From positions 115,542-179,541 of the forward strand of contig CAZHVK010000001.1 of NCBI GenBank assembly GCA_964535955.1: DNA of 64,000 bases. The letters are read 5' to 3'. Under the pieces are notes generated by a model. The model made no database searches. It was not told the origin of the DNA and saw only the letters and a program-made list of their open reading frames with translations. The number at the start of each line of letters is the position of its first letter. The stretch's first letter is position 1. This DNA is from an uncultured Methanosarcinales archaeon (GTDB lineage Archaea > Nanobdellota > Nanobdellia > Woesearchaeales > CAXGTL01). Made by a program: the position numbers and the translations under genes. Shown in pieces: positions 56,689 through 62,105 of this stretch.

Positions 56689-57966
56689 CTACAATTCATT
56701 TAATGTAACAATATTCAGTCTAGTATCTCTCTTATTGATTCTTGAGTCCATTGCTACTACAAACTTAATGTTTTTATTCTGCTCTAATCCTTTTATTAAA
56801 GCTCTATCAATGCTACCATCAAATACAACTGCAAAAACATTTGTACCTAAGTTACTTATTGTAGATGAGATTTCTGATATAGGAACCTTACCTAAAATAT
56901 TTAACTTATCATCAAGTATGTAACTACCCCTTGTACCTATTAAATCTTCTAGCATTTGTTTAAATGATTTTTTTTGTTTATCATCTAAACTAATTTTAGC
57001 TGCTGGAGGTCCTGCTTGAGATCTTTGTTGATAACTAGATCTTTGATAACTTGATTTTTGGTAAGGTTTTCTTGAATCTTGTCTTCTGTATGACTGTCTT
57101 TTACCACCATTCATTGACTCTGTTGTTGCATCTAGATTGAATTCCATTTTTGCTTGTTCTGCTGCTACTTTGCTTCTCAATGCTTTATGAATTTCTTTCT
57201 TAGTTATTTCTTCAACTTCTTTTCCGTCAGGTGCTTTTGTTACAAAATCAATGTCTGCGACATTTAAGATTTCTTTTATGATAAGGTTACCTCCCCTATC
57301 TCCATCTGTAAAAACAGTCATAATCTTTTCTTTACTTAGACCAATAATTGATTCTGGTATTGATGTTCCATTTATTGCTATTACATTCTTAAAACCATGT
57401 TTTAATAAATTAAGAACATCTGCTCTTCCTTCAACAATTATAATATCATCACTTTCATCAACACTAGGACCTGCAGGTAGCCTGTCTTTACCATATTCTT
57501 GTATTTCCATTACTCTTACAGAATATGCTACTTCATCTGCTAGTTCTTGAGAATCTGGCATTACTTTGTCCATTAGGTTTTTTAGTAATATTTTTGCTCT
57601 GTCAATAACAAACTGTCTTTTGCTAACTCTAACATCTTCAATGTTTTGTACTTGAATCTTAGCATTACAAGGTCCAATTCTTTGAATAATTTCTAATGAA
57701 GCAGCTACAATAGATGTTTCTGCTTTATCTAAAGAACTCGGAATTAATATTGTACCTGTTGTTTTACCTGATCTTGTTTCAGCTGTTACTTCTATTCTAC
57801 CGATTCTACCTGATCTTTGAAGTTCTCTAAGTTCTAAATCTGCTCCTAACAAGCCTTCTGTTTGACCAAATACTGCTCCTATTACATCTGGTTTGTCTAC
57901 AACTCCTTCTATTTGGATGTTTGCATGAACAATATATTTTGCTGATACTGGGCTAATTTTAGCCAT
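56689..57966 (-). CDS. dnaG: Archaeal DnaG-type primase (TOPRIM)
   Basis: TOPRIM motif [28 protein letters not shown] and [10 protein letters not shown] chose the ATG at 57966 (MAKISP...); the track used a GTG at 57975. Confidence 0.85.
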
Positions 57967-57983
57967 TTTTATCACTCTCCTAG

Positions 57984-58036
57984 TTTGTCAAAAACTTTGT
58001 TTTTGATCATGATCAGAAATCCTTGATTTCTGACAA
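57984..58036. promoter_or_regulatory. Conserved palindromic upstream element, copy 2: TTTGTCAAAAAC-N8-TTTTTGATCATGATCAGAAA ... TGACAAA, about 44 nt upstream of dnaG
   Basis: The same 12-bp palindrome TGATCATGATCA with 32/34 conserved flanks. The outer arms TTTGTCA/TGACAAA are also symmetric. Confidence 0.5.
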
Positions 58037-58592
58037 ATTTGATAGAAAAAGCTCTCTAACTTGATTCCAAATAATGTGTTTTGTGAATAAGTAAACATGA
58101 TTTTGCCTTTTCTATCTATTTAAGAACAAGTTTTAAACCGTAATTTTAACTAATTTCCAACTCTTTTTTTGCTTTTAAATGATTAAATGAATATGATTTG
58201 CGGTTTTTTTGACTTGTTCTATTGTTTTTAAGCCTATTTTGACTTTCTTTGTTCTTTTTAAACTTAATTTATGATTTAATAAGCATAAAAGGTTTGTTGC
58301 CTGAAGCACTAACTCCCAGGGTTCATTGCTCGCCTTATGCGTTAGCTCCATTGAGCACTCTCGTGTCAGGCTGTATTATGCAAGAGTATCTTTAAATCAC
58401 TGTTGTTCTTTGTTGAACAGCTCATAAAAGGACCCATTTGCATAAATTGTGCGATGATATATGGTAGGTAGAGGTGGTTAATAAATGTTTGGTTTTTTGT
58501 GGTTTTTGTCATCACTTGAAGGTAATGACTTATAGAAAGATTTATATAGTGGTGTGTGTTGCTTTTTACTATATAATTATATAGTGAGGTAA

Positions 58593-59006
58593 TTGAAGAT
58601 GAAAGACACATATAGAGTTAATGAAGATGGTGAAACATTAAGTGCTAGGCTTGTTAAAGGTGATGAGGGTAAAACTATTGAGATAATGTATACAAAAAGA
58701 AATGGTGATTATCAAGTTGGTTTGTATAAAGGTGGAGTTGAACAAAGTACAAGAGCAGTATTTGCAGATGAAAGTCAACCTATGCAGAATTCTGATGGTA
58801 ACAGTTTTTTACAAATGTATATAGCTGCTTATGATAAGTTAGGTCCTAAGTTAAGGGAACAATTACCAGCTGAATGGTGCAGTATTCTTGGTTCATGGCT
58901 TAAGAAGAGTGGTTATAGAAAAGCAATTGATTCTATGAAAAAAGAAGTTGGTGAAGATGGTGCACAAATATTAGAAAATTTGCCAAAGATTATTTTTGGG
59001 TTGTAG
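58593..59006 (+). CDS. Hypothetical protein, first gene of a compact 4-gene plus-strand operon
   Basis: A GAGGT SD lies upstream. Local GC is higher than in the neighbouring genes. Confidence 0.4.
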   Translation: MKMKDTYRVNEDGETLSARLVKGDEGKTIEIMYTKRNGDYQVGLYKGGVEQSTRAVFADESQPMQNSDGNSFLQMYIAAYDKLGPKLREQLPAEWCSILGSWLKKSGYRKAIDSMKKEVGEDGAQILENLPKIIFGL

Positions 59007-59024
59007 TTAGGAGGTTTTTAGAAA

Positions 59025-59429
59025 ATGATAATAAAAAATGGATTTAAGAAGTTTGGTAGTTATGAATTAGATGTTGTAAATGAAGGTTCTAATAATCACA
59101 GAGGATTAATAGGCACAGTTGTTGCAAAAGGTGCTTATGCTGAAGATTCTGAACCTAATGTTGGTTCTGCATATAATTTTGGTCTTAATCAACCTAATCT
59201 AAAGAGAAAGATTTCAAAATGGGCTAAAAAAAATTGTGTTGTAATGGATGAAGATAATAAATATGAATGTGCTCTTGTTGATGGTTTAGTTGATCTTGTT
59301 CAACAAGGTAGTAAAGAAGGAGCAAGGATTGCTGTTATAAAAGGGTTTTCATTTGATAGTCAAAAGATACCTGCTCGTGTTGATGATTCAAGGTATTATG
59401 CATTAATACATGCTGAGTTGTATAAGTAG
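59025..59429 (+). CDS. Hypothetical protein, operon gene 2
   Basis: A GGAGG SD lies 9 nt upstream. The gap to gene 1 is 18 nt. Confidence 0.4.
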   Translation: MIIKNGFKKFGSYELDVVNEGSNNHRGLIGTVVAKGAYAEDSEPNVGSAYNFGLNQPNLKRKISKWAKKNCVVMDEDNKYECALVDGLVDLVQQGSKEGARIAVIKGFSFDSQKIPARVDDSRYYALIHAELYK

Positions 59430-59441
59430 ATTTGTAATAAA

Positions 59442-59756
59442 ATGACAGACAAAATAAAAATCTATAAAGAAGAAATTCAACATGGTGATAAAGTATGTTC
59501 TTGTGTTATTATTGAGCATAGTGATGGAGCAGATAGGTTTGATATTGCTAAACAAGCTGTTGATAGTGGTTTGATTGATTATTCTAGTGATTCTGAGAAA
59601 GAACAGATATATCAATTGATTCTTCAGGAAAGAAGGGTTGAGCCTAAGAAACAAAGTAATGATAAAAAAGATATAAGTCTTACTGAAAGGCTTAAACAGA
59701 AAAGGCAAAAAAGAATTAAGGAAAAACCCCAGAGAAATTTTGATTATAAGGGATGA
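59442..59756 (+). CDS. Hypothetical protein, operon gene 3 (acidic N-terminus, K/R-rich C-terminus)
   Basis: The gap to gene 2 is 12 nt. Confidence 0.4.
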   Translation: MTDKIKIYKEEIQHGDKVCSCVIIEHSDGADRFDIAKQAVDSGLIDYSSDSEKEQIYQLILQERRVEPKKQSNDKKDISLTERLKQKRQKRIKEKPQRNFDYKG

Positions 59757-59772
59757 AGGATGGAAGATAAAA

Positions 59773-60501
59773 ATGATCCCACTCTTCCTTAAAAAACACA
59801 AAATCTCTAAGTTCTTTAGTGAATTGTTTAACACAAAAAGAAGTAAAAAAGTAAAAAAAACATTAGACAGATTCATCCAACAAATATATTGGGGAGATGA
59901 TTTAACAGTTGAACAGTCTAGAAAGAATCTTGGCAAAGGGTTGGTAGAGATTGTTAAATATGGACAGCATTCTTCAAATGGAATATTGATTACTGGTGAT
60001 GGGTATTTCTTGACTGCTGAACATTGTGTTACAGATGGATTAGTAGGTGCACAGATAAGATTGTTTAATGGTAATCTGTATCCTGTTGAAAAGATTTGTG
60101 GATATGTTCCTAAAGAAGATATTGCTCTTGCAAAAGCAGATATTCCATATAAATGTATTCCAATGGAATACAGAATCTATAATACTAATAAATTAGGAAA
60201 AATGGCTGTTGCTACAATGACCAGAAGATATGGTAAACTGATTGTAAAGTATGGTTTTGTTACAAGAGAATGGAACCCTACTCCTACATACAAAGGTGGT
60301 CTTGAAGCTGTTATGTATCCTAACCAGTTTACAATGGATATTGAAGCTATACCTGGTGATTCAGGAGGGATAATTGTTAGTGAAGATGGAAGATTGGTTG
60401 GTATTTTAAGTGGTGGCCATGAGAAAATATTAACTGGTGCTGGTGTAAAGATAATAAGTGCTTTGGAATTAGTTGATAGGTATAAGAGGAAGTTGAGATG
60501 A
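59773..60501 (+). CDS. Trypsin-like (S1/chymotrypsin fold) serine protease, apparently cytoplasmic
   Basis: Catalytic triad: His in LTAEHCV, Asp in DIALAKAD, Ser in GDSGGII. No signal peptide. I used the ATG at 59773; the track used a TTG at 59740. Confidence 0.65.
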   Translation: MIPLFLKKHKISKFFSELFNTKRSKKVKKTLDRFIQQIYWGDDLTVEQSRKNLGKGLVEIVKYGQHSSNGILITGDGYFLTAEHCVTDGLVGAQIRLFNGNLYPVEKICGYVPKEDIALAKADIPYKCIPMEYRIYNTNKLGKMAVATMTRRYGKLIVKYGFVTREWNPTPTYKGGLEAVMYPNQFTMDIEAIPGDSGGIIVSEDGRLVGILSGGHEKILTGAGVKIISALELVDRYKRKLR

Positions 60502-60553: not shown

Positions 60554-61255
60554 ATGACAAAGAAAACCAAAGAAATATGGAAAGTTTACAAAAATGTATT
60601 TTCAGAGTTTACACTTAGGACTGTTTTTAAACTTAGTTCTGAAGGACATTTTGATGAATTAAAGTCGCCGATTTCAATTGGTAAAGAAGCTAATATATTT
60701 ACAGCTTCGAAGGGAAGGGGTTTGGTTATTGTTAAGATCTATAGGTTGGAAAGTTGTAATTTTAACCAGATGTATAATTATATTAAACAAGATGTAAGAT
60801 ATGTTGGATTGAAAAAGCATAGAAGACAGATAATATTTTCCTGGGTGCAAAGAGAGTTTAGGAATTTGTTGATTGCTCGTGATGCTGGTTGTAATGTGCC
60901 TAAACCAATTGCTTTTAAGAATAATGTTATTGTTGAAGAATATTTAGGTGATGATAATCCTGCACCTATGCTAAAAGATTCTCATGTTAAGAATAAAAAG
61001 AAATTCTTTGATGAAGTTGTTAAAAATATGAAAAAGATGTATAAAAAAGGATTAGTTCATGCTGATTTATCAAAGTTTAACATTTTAAATTGTAGAAATA
61101 AACCTTATTTTATTGACTTTTCTCAAGCAACTACATTAAGAGCTTCTGAAGCTGATATGTATTTGAAAAGAGATATAAAGAATGTATGTAACCATTTTAA
61201 GAGATTGGGTTTGAAAGTTGATGTTGATAAGGTTTATAAAAAAATCACTAAGTGA
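60554..61255 (+). CDS. RIO-type serine/threonine protein kinase (Rio1-like, short form)
   Basis: The STGKEANxY-type ATP-binding loop appears as ISIGKEANIF. The catalytic loop is LVHADLSKFNIL. The metal-binding motif is IDFSQA. Confidence 0.7.
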   Translation: MTKKTKEIWKVYKNVFSEFTLRTVFKLSSEGHFDELKSPISIGKEANIFTASKGRGLVIVKIYRLESCNFNQMYNYIKQDVRYVGLKKHRRQIIFSWVQREFRNLLIARDAGCNVPKPIAFKNNVIVEEYLGDDNPAPMLKDSHVKNKKKFFDEVVKNMKKMYKKGLVHADLSKFNILNCRNKPYFIDFSQATTLRASEADMYLKRDIKNVCNHFKRLGLKVDVDKVYKKITK

Positions 61256-62105
61256 TTTCATATAATTTTCTCAATACTCTTAATTTTTTATAACCATCTG
61301 CATCTAAGAATTGGTTTAGAAAATTAACATATTCATTGTCTTTGTTTAATATTTCATGTTTTCTAGAAGCACTGCCAATTATTGTATCTAAACCATTTTT
61401 CATTGCTAATGTTAAGAATGCATTTTGCAAAGGTAATTTTGTTTTTTTAGGTAATTGTTGTGTTAGGTTTGATAACCCTACTAACATATGTGTTTGTTGT
61501 AATTCTGGATCTAAGTTTATCATTTTTATTGTATCTAAAACAATGTTTATCTTGTTTTCATAATCAGATGCAAGAACTATTGCGCCTGGGTCAAAGAATA
61601 TATGTTCTGGTTTAAAATCATAGTCAAGTGCTTTATTATACAATCTTTTTGCTGTTTGATATGATTCTTTTGCTGTTGTGTTTGTGTGAAGGCGTGAATT
61701 TTCTAATCTTTCTGAAATAAGAATAACAACTTGACAAGGTTTCTTTTTTCTTAAAGAAAATACAGCATCTGATCTTGCTTCTGTTGCAGAATTTAAGATT
61801 GGTAAACCATTTGATTTGTCAATATTATATGCATCTAAGCCTGCTTGTAGTTTCAAAGGATTTGCATCATCTATTGACAATGGTATTGTTGTTATTGATT
61901 GTATTGATTTAATTATTATTTCTAATTCTTGTTTAGGTGATAATCCAACATTAACATCAATATAATGTGCACCTTTTATTGCTTGTTTTTTAGCAATTCT
62001 TTGTATTTTTGCATAATCATGTGATTTTAGAATCTTTTCTATTTTTGATAGACTTGCATTGATTTTTTCACCTATTATTGTTAATCCTTTTAATGGCATT
62101 ATCAA
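61248..62105 (-). CDS. Pterin-binding domain protein (MtrH/MetH pterin-binding-like methyltransferase)
   Basis: IIGEKIN (the GERIN motif), GAHYIDVNVGL and IPLSIDDANPLKLQAGLDAY...ILNSAT match the pterin-binding (DHPS-like) TIM-barrel pattern. Confidence 0.6.
   Translation of the reverse strand: MIMPLKGLTIIGEKINASLSKIEKILKSHDYAKIQRIAKKQAIKGAHYIDVNVGLSPKQELEIIIKSIQSITTIPLSIDDANPLKLQAGLDAYNIDKSNGLPILNSATEARSDAVFSLRKKKPCQVVILISERLENSRLHTNTTAKESYQTAKRLYNKALDYDFKPEHIFFDPGAIVLASDYENKINIVLDTIKMINLDPELQQTHMLVGLSNLTQQLPKKTKLPLQNAFLTLAMKNGLDTIIGSASRKHEILNKDNEYVNFLNQFLDADGYKKLRVLRKLYEIT

What the first reader, a model, noticed from the sequence alone, without database searches (positions are those of the whole stretch)
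58593..60501. Compact four-gene operon ending in a cytoplasmic trypsin-like protease, with locally elevated GC
Four plus-strand genes with 12-18 nt spacers, each with a GGAGG-type SD, encode three proteins of unknown family (137, 134 and 104 aa) and an S1-fold serine protease with an intact His/Asp/Ser triad and no signal peptide. By eye, GC in sampled stretches is about 35-37%, against about 20-30% in neighbouring genes. The operon follows a GC-rich intergenic island (58290-58460). The makeup suggests a horizontally acquired module, perhaps a defence, toxin or proteolytic regulatory system, or a prophage remnant.
Basis: partly seen in the sequence, partly recalled or inferred. Interest (0 to 1): 0.5.

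Follow-up and report, generated by a model that had tools for sequence, protein, structure and literature searches.

The report
Species-specific protease cassette beside conserved sRNA
A small archaeon of the Woesearchaeota (DPANN) group carries four extra genes found in this arrangement only in this species: one working-looking intracellular trypsin-type protease and three proteins with no relatives anywhere; nothing links them to virus defence or to a prophage, and the GC-rich patch in front of them is a separate, widely conserved guide RNA for ribosomal RNA modification.

Summary
The four plus-strand genes are real, tightly spaced and code for soluble proteins. ORF4 is an S1 serine protease with an invariant His84/Asp116/Ser197 triad. 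It belongs to a rare family found almost only in DPANN archaea (48 clusters). ORF1-3 match nothing in billions of proteins.

The GC elevation is real but small: 32.3% against 28.1%, not 35-37%. It lies in codon positions 1 and 2, because the proteins are rich in Gly and Arg. GC3 and synonymous codon usage match the host.

Synteny does show an insertion. In most relatives rio1 lies 90-460 nt from the RNA gene next to dnaG. Here 2.1 kb of cargo fills that gap. Close relatives carry unrelated cargo there.

There is no integrase, tRNA gene, att-like repeat, viral homologue or defence-system match. Protease homologues elsewhere stand alone in varied contexts.

Best reading: a lineage-specific accessory cassette in a slot prone to gene turnover. 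A functional link between the protease and the ORFans is unproven.

The "GC-rich island" is a two-hairpin H/ACA-type guide sRNA on the minus strand. It is conserved upstream of dnaG in 76 related loci and shows strong covariation. Interest is low to moderate.

The parts
58570..58590 (+). AT-rich TATA-like element (TATATAATTATATA) followed by the Shine-Dalgarno motif GUGAGGU, upstream of ORF1. Inferred promoter and ribosome-binding site of the cassette.
   Evidence: Read from the sequence. The block is conserved in L012 and L013, where it precedes different genes. Promoter function is inferred, not shown.
58599..59006 (+). ORF1, 135 aa. Soluble ORFan: predicted N-terminal beta-sheet and C-terminal helices.
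59025..59429 (+). ORF2, 134 aa. Soluble ORFan with a strong AGGAGGU Shine-Dalgarno motif.
   Evidence: Only a self-hit. Codon score 0.527. AF2 model unusable, pLDDT 35.
59442..59756 (+). ORF3, 104 aa. ORFan with a small N-terminal domain and a Lys/Arg/Glu-rich tail. No Shine-Dalgarno motif.
   Evidence: Full phmmer search of 1.84 billion representatives finds only itself. Codon score 0.338.
59773..60501 (+). ORF4, 242 aa. Cytoplasmic S1 (chymotrypsin-fold) serine protease of a DPANN-restricted family. Conserved N-terminal helix (L..FIQQ.YWG), then the H84/D116/S197 triad.
   Evidence: Pfam Trypsin_2 and Trypsin above threshold. 48 homologue clusters at 25-50% identity. Invariant triad. Best solved relatives are Jep (6.5e-6) and DegQ/DegP/HtrA (~1e-4). 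No hydrophobic N-terminus.
58295..58445 (-). Context, not part of the cassette: a two-hairpin H/ACA-type guide sRNA, which is the 'GC-rich island'. Hairpin I 58445-58376, ACA 58374-58372. Hairpin II 58371-58299, ACA 58297-58295. A TATA-like box lies at 58478-58487.
   Evidence: Covariance model R1 finds it in 76 dnaG loci, always on the dnaG strand. 90.9% of cells are paired against 72.9% when shuffled, and 32 of 36 pairs show double changes. K-turn GA pairs are present in 73-74 of 76, and ACA follows hairpin II in 59 of 76. The pockets are complementary to the 23S A-loop and to helix 69.

Best explanation
The region is a lineage-specific accessory gene cassette. It sits in a slot prone to gene turnover in an AT-rich Woesearchaeota (DPANN) chromosome. 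The slot lies between two conserved units: the H/ACA sRNA-dnaG pair on one side and rio1-KH on the other.

The four genes are probably transcribed together from a promoter region that close relatives also have, where it drives other cargo. This is inferred from spacing and conservation.

ORF4 is a catalytically competent, soluble, intracellular S1 serine endopeptidase without a PDZ domain. Its family is small and almost restricted to DPANN archaea. Its homologues occur as stand-alone genes in unrelated neighbourhoods. It therefore most likely works on its own as a cytoplasmic regulatory or quality-control protease, not as one component of a fixed multi-gene system (inferred).

ORF1-3 are genuine protein-coding genes restricted to this species. 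Their function is unassigned. They are either fast-evolving or recently arisen accessory proteins. Any role as substrates, inhibitors or partners of the protease is speculative.
For: Gene reality and host-like usage:
- Long ORFs in a 28% GC genome.
- In-frame codon scores at the 48th-84th percentile of the window's genes, with negative scores in nearly all other frames (highest 0.04).
- GC3 typical of the host.
- The excess GC comes from Gly (8.9% vs 4.7%) and Arg (4.9% vs 3.1%), with fewer Ile, Phe, Asn and Leu.

Protease.

ORFan status.

Insertion in a variable slot (distances worked out by hand from the coordinates):
- Among 20 relatives with the divergent arrangement, the distance from rio1 to the sRNA is under 500 nt in 15. 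It is about 2100 nt here.
- L013 (DnaG 84% identical) has two unrelated genes there. L012 starts a third, different gene.
- L037 has a PIN-MazE pair, TrmB and asparagine synthase. L063 has metabolic genes.

The protease stands alone elsewhere: seven homologues sit in seven different contexts.

The cassette is fixed in the species: contigs from at least 8 samples carry it at >=99.97% nucleotide identity.

The surroundings are housekeeping genes.
Against: - Co-transcription is not shown. A T5 run lies in the ORF1-ORF2 spacer, and ORF3 has no Shine-Dalgarno motif.
- The tight packing of four genes, and their joint fixation across samples, would also fit a functional unit.
- The absence of homologues for ORF1-3 prevents any test of co-occurrence.
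- The population is nearly clonal, so selection on ORF1-3 could not be measured.
- No structure was predicted for ORF4, and no substrate is known.
Confidence: 0.55

Rival explanations
1. The cassette is a dedicated conflict module (anti-virus defence or toxin-antitoxin-like). The protease would be the effector, and one or more ORFans would act as sensor, inhibitor or pro-toxin.
For: - The slot is variable, with different cargo in close relatives.
- In L037 the same slot holds a PIN-MazE pair.
- ORFans that evolve fast are typical of conflict genes.
- Weak PADLOC hit of ORF4 to the protease domain of RT-Protease_XI (4.6e-5).
- One homologue (L095) lies near NERD and MazG-like genes and has a tandem paralogue.
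Against: - No component other than the generic protease domain matches any PADLOC model.
- The slot also holds plain metabolic genes in L063.
- Protease homologues have no conserved partner.
- The surrounding genes are core information-processing genes.
Confidence: 0.15
2. The protease matures or degrades the co-encoded small proteins. ORF1-3 would be its substrates or a pro-form, making this a self-contained proteolytic regulatory unit.
For: - Tight operon-like spacing.
- ORF3 has a long, charged, probably disordered tail (read from the sequence).
- The family has a conserved N-terminal helix that could dock partners.
Confidence: 0.1
3. The cassette is a remnant of a virus or an integrated mobile element.
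For: It is a species-specific insertion made mostly of ORFans.
Against: - No hits for ORF1-3 in IMG/VR or in GenBank phages, and only one 26% hit for the protease.
- No significant PHROG hit for ORF1-3 (best E 0.03).
- No integrase or transposase within 20 kb.
- No tRNA gene in 64 kb.
- No flanking direct or inverted repeats.
- Host-like codon usage.
Confidence: 0.07
4. ORF1-3 are not real genes but chance ORFs or decayed remnants. Only the protease would be functional.
For: No homologues anywhere. The ORF2 model has very low confidence.
Against: - ORFs of 104-135 codons are very unlikely by chance at 28% GC.
- In-frame codon scores equal or exceed the genome average, and the other frames score near zero or negative (highest 0.006).
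- Shine-Dalgarno motifs precede ORF1 and ORF2.
- Independent gene callers predicted all of them.
Confidence: 0.05

Closest known systems
HtrA/DegP/DegQ (S1C) and staphylococcal Jep/Spl (S1B) serine proteases
   Same: Chymotrypsin-fold domain with the His-Asp-Ser triad in that order and a GDSGG motif. These are the best solved relatives by sequence: Jep 6.5e-6, DegQ/DegP/HtrA about 1e-4. NCBIfam gives weak HtrA-type hits.
   Different: No PDZ domain, no signal peptide and no membrane anchor. Only 242 aa. A family-specific N-terminal helix (L..FIQQ.YWG) precedes the protease domain. All NCBIfam scores are far below the cut-offs (about 20 bits against 400-800). The family is restricted to DPANN archaea apart from one 'bacterium' record.
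Protease domains of defence-associated reverse transcriptases (PADLOC RT-Protease_XI)
   Same: Weak similarity to the C-terminal trypsin-like domain (E 4.6e-5).
   Different: There is no reverse transcriptase here or nearby. The PADLOC model describes a single-gene fusion. The similarity is at the level of the generic S1 fold.
Nanoarchaeum equitans H/ACA box sRNA (159 nt; PMC3491384) and Haloferax volcanii sR-h45 (PMC7075261). These relate to the GC-rich island, not to the cassette.
   Same: - Two hairpins, each with a K-turn, separated only by an ACA hinge and followed by a terminal ACA. The length is about 150 nt, as described for N. equitans.
- The pocket of hairpin II pairs on both sides of an unpaired UAUA in 23S helix 69. 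This is the 'UNUN' arrangement shown experimentally for sR-h45 stem-loop 2.
   Different: - Hairpin I is predicted to target the 23S A-loop, not the site guided by sR-h45 stem-loop 1.
- No Rfam family matches.
- The fixed position upstream of dnaG has not been described in the papers read.

Membership tests
Peptidase family S1 (Pfam Trypsin_2 / Trypsin) | Profile match above the curated threshold | tested here: met
   Trypsin_2 scores 47.4 bits (cut-off 27.6). Trypsin scores 38.7 bits (cut-off 20.6).
Peptidase family S1 (Pfam Trypsin_2 / Trypsin) | Catalytic triad His-Asp-Ser in that order, with Ser in GDSGG | tested here: met
   H84, D116 and S197 are invariant in 37 aligned family members. 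Residues confirmed in the ORF4 translation.
Peptidase family S1 (Pfam Trypsin_2 / Trypsin) | Double beta-barrel fold | not tested
HtrA/DegP subfamily (S1C) | One or more C-terminal PDZ domains and an export signal or membrane anchor | tested here: not met
   No PDZ hit. The protein ends about 45 aa after the catalytic Ser. No hydrophobic segment. NCBIfam scores are about 20 bits against cut-offs above 400.
Known anti-phage defence systems (PADLOC-DB 2.0) | Matches of the component genes to the models of a defined system | tested here: not met
   ORF1-3 give no hits. ORF4 gives only weak domain-level hits: RT-Protease_XI 4.6e-5 and PDC-M35A 0.01. DefenseFinder was not available.
Prophage or integrative element | Integrase or recombinase, att-like flanking repeats, a tRNA target, virus-like genes | tested here: not met
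   no tRNA gene; no flanking repeats; no integrase within about 20 kb; no viral homologues.
Horizontally acquired island, judged by composition | GC3 or codon usage that departs from the host genes | tested here: not met
   GC3 is 0.126-0.226 against 0.187 +/- 0.038. Synonymous-codon z scores run from -1.29 to +1.00.
Accessory insertion, judged by synteny | Absent from the orthologous position in related genomes | tested here: met
   No relative of ORF1-4 in any of the 80 dnaG loci. The rio1-sRNA gap is under 500 nt in 15 of 20 relatives. L013 has different cargo.
Archaeal box H/ACA guide sRNA (for the GC-rich island) | Hairpin made of a lower stem, a large internal loop (the pocket) and an upper stem, supported by covariation | tested here: met
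   36 pairs, 90.9% paired, 32 with compensatory changes. Controls with slid partners give about 40%. Caveat: the alignment was fitted to the model.
Archaeal box H/ACA guide sRNA (for the GC-rich island) | K-turn or K-loop (tandem sheared G.A pairs with a 3-nt bulge) above the upper stem | tested here: met
   In hairpin II, GA is present on the 5' strand in 73 of 76 sequences, and 'C-stem + 3 nt + GA' on the 3' strand in 74 of 76. Hairpin I has UGA / GUGA in the same geometry.
Archaeal box H/ACA guide sRNA (for the GC-rich island) | ACA (ANA) box just 3' of each lower stem, about 15 nt from the top of the pocket | tested here: met
   ACA lies within 5 nt of hairpin II in 59 of 76, and ANA in 2 more. 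The other 15 are mostly NNCA. In the window the spacing is 15 nt for hairpin I and 16-17 nt for hairpin II. Up to 17 is tolerated experimentally (PMC7075261).
Archaeal box H/ACA guide sRNA (for the GC-rich island) | Both pocket strands complementary to rRNA on either side of an unpaired UN | tested here: inconclusive
   - Hairpin I: 6+6 bp around UC in the 23S A-loop. This is the top site in three archaeal rRNA operons, and shuffled guides reach it in 4 of 200 trials.
- Hairpin II: 4+6 Watson-Crick bp around UAUA of helix 69, recurring in all three operons, but the score is not exceptional (shuffled guides match the observed top score in 32 of 200).
- The rRNAs are from other archaea, not from this genome.
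Archaeal box H/ACA guide sRNA (for the GC-rich island) | Expression, binding by Cbf5/Nop10/Gar1/L7Ae, and pseudouridine at the predicted sites | not testable with these tools
   Needs RNA-seq, RNP reconstitution or pseudouridine mapping.

The most novel reading that the evidence does not exclude
The four genes form a previously unknown protease-based conflict system specific to DPANN archaea. [quoted passage not shown] It would be carried in a hotspot that exchanges such cargo between lineages.
Probability: 0.1. Interest if true: 0.6.

Novelty: new member of a known kind. Interest (0 to 1): 0.25.

Why it matters
The result is mainly a clarification.
- A region that looked like a foreign island is an ordinary lineage-specific accessory cassette.
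- Its composition signal comes from amino-acid content, not from foreign origin.

Two modest results could be reused:
1. A small family of PDZ-less, signal-less S1 proteases, almost restricted to DPANN archaea. Their intracellular proteolysis is hardly studied.
2. A two-hairpin H/ACA-type guide sRNA that is not in Rfam and sits upstream of dnaG in 76 of 81 dnaG loci searched (the window and 80 related Woesearchaeota/Nanoarchaeota genomes). Gene callers currently lay a spurious 58-aa ORF over it. A covariance model for it would improve the annotation of DPANN genomes and predict pseudouridines in the 23S A-loop and helix 69.

Tried and rejected
- Rfam, at gathering thresholds on the whole window and at E<=10 on 57950-58650: no family for the island.
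- ARAGORN: no tRNA gene in 64 kb.
- Bacterial promoter and terminator scan: no more sites than in shuffled sequence, and not suited to archaea.
- phmmer of ORF1-3 against all 6,772 ORFs of the fetched loci, against each other and against the window: nothing. So they are not paralogues and are unrelated to the cargo in relatives.
- PDB sequence search for ORF1-3: nothing below E 0.7.
- Viral contigs and GenBank phages: nothing for ORF1-3. The protease has one 26% hit in IMG/VR and none in phages.
- dN/dS on ORF1-3: impossible, because eleven contigs of the species differ by at most 2 bases.
- Target scan of the sRNA pockets on E. coli rRNA: nothing clean. No rRNA genes in the dnaG loci. No contig holds both the sRNA and a 23S gene, so guide-target covariation within one genome could not be tested.
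- Readings of the island considered and dropped: SRP RNA, RNase P RNA, C/D box sRNA, split tRNA. There are no Rfam hits and the motifs do not fit. A leader peptide or 58-aa protein was also dropped, because the reading frame is not conserved in L012 and L013.
- Literature searches for H/ACA RNAs in DPANN and for Woesearchaeota S1 proteases found nothing specific.
Full report
**Observation**

The window is AT-rich (28.1% GC) and archaeal. DnaG primase, RIO1 kinase, a Krr1/Dim2-type KH protein, an Lrp/AsnC regulator and Orc1/Cdc6 surround the finding. The closest DnaG relatives are Woesearchaeota/Nanoarchaeota MAGs: 87% (L012), 84% (L013), and 60-69% for the rest.

Four plus-strand ORFs are present as described:
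- ORF1: 58599-59006, 135 aa
- ORF2: 59025-59429, 134 aa
- ORF3: 59442-59756, 104 aa
- ORF4: 59773-60501, 242 aa

The spacers are 18, 12 and 16 nt. Only ORF1 (GUGAGGU) and ORF2 (AGGAGGU) have clear Shine-Dalgarno motifs. ORF4 has a weak one and ORF3 has none. No protein has a hydrophobic segment.

**Composition**

The cluster is 32.3% GC against 28.1% for the window. That puts it in the top 0.7% of 1909-nt windows, so a local rise is real.

Per gene, GC is 0.305-0.335, against a mean of 0.288 (sd 0.030, max 0.340). GC3 is 0.184, 0.126, 0.190 and 0.226, against 0.187 +/- 0.038.

A codon model trained on the other 50 genes scores ORF1-4 in frame at 0.553, 0.527, 0.338 and 0.372. Other genes score 0.369 +/- 0.135. 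The alternative frames score near zero or negative (highest 0.04). Synonymous-codon z scores are +0.73, +1.00, -0.09 and -1.29.

The extra GC comes from amino-acid content: Gly 8.9% vs 4.7%, Arg 4.9% vs 3.1%, and fewer Ile, Phe, Asn and Leu. So the genes are real and use host-like codons. Composition gives no evidence of recent foreign origin.

**What the proteins are**

ORF4 passes the Pfam thresholds for Trypsin_2 and Trypsin.

It has 48 homologue clusters at 25-50% identity, nearly all 217-286 aa long. The few that sources name are Nanoarchaeota, plus one 'bacterium'.

In an alignment of 37 members, N69, G77, T81, H84, C85, D116, G195, S197 and G198 are invariant. A family-specific N-terminal helix (L..FIQQ.YWG..L....S..NLE.GLVEI) precedes the protease domain.

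The best solved relatives are S. aureus Jep (6.5e-6) and DegQ/DegP/HtrA (about 1e-4). There is no PDZ domain and no export signal.

ORF1, ORF2 and ORF3 match no family in Pfam, NCBIfam, PHROGs or PADLOC. They have no homologues apart from themselves in the 5.8-billion-cluster database, or, for ORF3, in a full phmmer scan of 1.84 billion representatives. They also match nothing in PDB, viral contigs or GenBank phages. They are not paralogues of each other.

**Context and synteny**

Eleven contigs of the same species, from at least eight samples, all carry the cassette wherever they reach it. They are at least 99.97% identical. The cassette is therefore fixed in this population, and selection on it cannot be measured.

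Among 80 related dnaG loci, none encodes a relative of ORF1-4. Many keep the divergent arrangement KH-rio1 / dnaG.

I combined the tblastn coordinates with the sRNA positions. The distance from the rio1 start to the sRNA is 90-463 nt in 15 of 20 such relatives. It is 700-3865 nt in five others, and about 2100 nt here.

The larger gaps hold unrelated cargo:
- L013: two genes with no Pfam family.
- L037: a PIN-MazE pair, TrmB and asparagine synthase.
- L063: PRTase, a hydrolase, PRPP synthetase and a GNAT.

In L012 and L013 the promoter and Shine-Dalgarno block that precedes ORF1 is conserved, but it is followed by different first genes. So this is a slot prone to gene turnover with mixed content, not a dedicated defence island.

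The cassette has no flanking repeats. There is no tRNA gene in 64 kb and no integrase nearby.

Seven protease homologues examined in other genomes sit in seven unrelated neighbourhoods with no recurrent partner.

**Interpretation**

The best-supported reading is a lineage-specific accessory cassette. Its one assignable product is an autonomous cytoplasmic S1 endopeptidase of a DPANN-restricted family. The other three genes are genuine ORFans, probably co-transcribed with it.

'Defence, toxin or prophage' has no positive evidence beyond a generic protease-domain hit in PADLOC (4.6e-5). A coupled proteolytic or conflict system cannot be excluded, because ORF1-3 have no homologues with which to test co-occurrence. 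I give those readings about 0.1-0.15 each.

**The GC-rich island**

The block at 58290-58460 (42% GC) is conserved at the nucleotide level upstream of dnaG in L012 and L013, with compensatory changes. It folds better on the dnaG strand, where many G-U pairs form.

A covariance model built from seven sequences finds it in 76 dnaG loci. It is always on the dnaG strand and lies upstream of dnaG, about 110-510 nt in loci where both are complete. The model finds nothing in 460 kb of unrelated rRNA contigs.

Of 36 modelled pairs, 90.9% of cells are paired against 72.9% when shuffled. 32 pairs show double changes. Controls with slid partners fall to about 40%. The alignment was fitted to the model, which favours the structure.

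The RNA has two hairpins. Each has a lower stem, a large internal loop with nearly invariant strands, a 5-bp upper stem, a K-turn (GA/GA with a 3-nt bulge, present in 73-74 of 76) and a small apical stem. Each is followed by NACA. ACA follows hairpin II in 59 of 76 sequences. Hairpin I is present in 45 of 76.

This matches the description of the single H/ACA sRNA of Nanoarchaeum equitans: 159 nt, two K-turn hairpins and an ACA-only hinge (PMC3491384).

A metagenome scan recovered archaeal 23S genes, three of them in complete operons. On these:
- The hairpin I pocket pairs 6+6 bp around an unpaired UC in the A-loop. This is the top site in all three operons, and shuffled guides reach it in 4 of 200 trials. 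The site is seen in at least 43 LSU contigs.
- The hairpin II pocket pairs 4+6 Watson-Crick bp around the unpaired UAUA of helix 69. This is the UNUN arrangement shown for H. volcanii sR-h45 stem-loop 2 (PMC7075261). The site recurs in all three operons, but its score is not statistically exceptional.

These rRNAs are not from this genome.

The island is therefore most likely an H/ACA guide sRNA gene paired with dnaG. It is not part of the cassette and is not a mark of acquisition. Gene callers place a spurious 58-aa ORF over it.

**Verdict**

The cassette is an ordinary accessory insertion with a new member of a known enzyme class and three ORFans. Interest is about 0.25. The sRNA is a useful by-product.

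Noticed in passing
window 58295-58445 (minus strand); also L012:192-384, L013:9634-9826 and 73 other dnaG loci: A two-hairpin H/ACA-type guide sRNA that is not in Rfam. It is conserved upstream of dnaG across Woesearchaeota/Nanoarchaeota, with strong covariation, K-turns and ACA boxes. Predicted targets are the 23S A-loop and helix 69.
   Followed up: yes
window 58175-58351 (minus strand): Public gene calls predict a 58-aa ORF here (e.g. L001 3911-4087, L098 3622-3798). It overlaps hairpin II of the sRNA, and its reading frame is not conserved in L012 or L013. It is probably a spurious call.
   Followed up: partly
window 61248-62105 (minus strand): A gene for a pterin-binding-domain protein (Pfam Pterin_bind, 1.5e-18) lies between rio1 and the KH gene. 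In L013 and many other relatives those two genes are directly adjacent. This is a second lineage-specific insertion, about 100 bp from the first.
   Followed up: partly
window 58508-58529: A palindrome (GTCATCACTTGAAGGTAATGAC) lies between the sRNA promoter and the cassette promoter. The equivalent position in L012 and L013 reads GTCACTTTAAAGTGAC. It may be a regulator-binding site in the divergent promoter region.
   Followed up: no
window 58000-58019 and 58207-58266: A 13-nt palindrome (TTTTTGATCATGATCAGAAA) lies just upstream of the dnaG start. An imperfect 30-nt tandem duplication lies between the sRNA and dnaG. Both are in the dnaG leader or promoter region.
   Followed up: no
L095:6001-7587 (CP064996.1, 943-kb genome labelled 'bacterium'): The only family member with a non-archaeal label occurs as a tandem pair of S1 proteases. 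It sits next to NERD, MazG-like, RHH and DNA-methylase genes, a neighbourhood that looks more like conflict genes than any of the archaeal ones.
   Followed up: no
L037:6037-6752: In this relative the same rio1-sRNA slot holds a PIN toxin and MazE-like antitoxin pair. This shows that mobile addiction modules can also land there.
   Followed up: partly
window 1-64000: There is no tRNA gene, no rRNA gene and no Rfam family at gathering threshold anywhere in the 64 kb.
   Followed up: no
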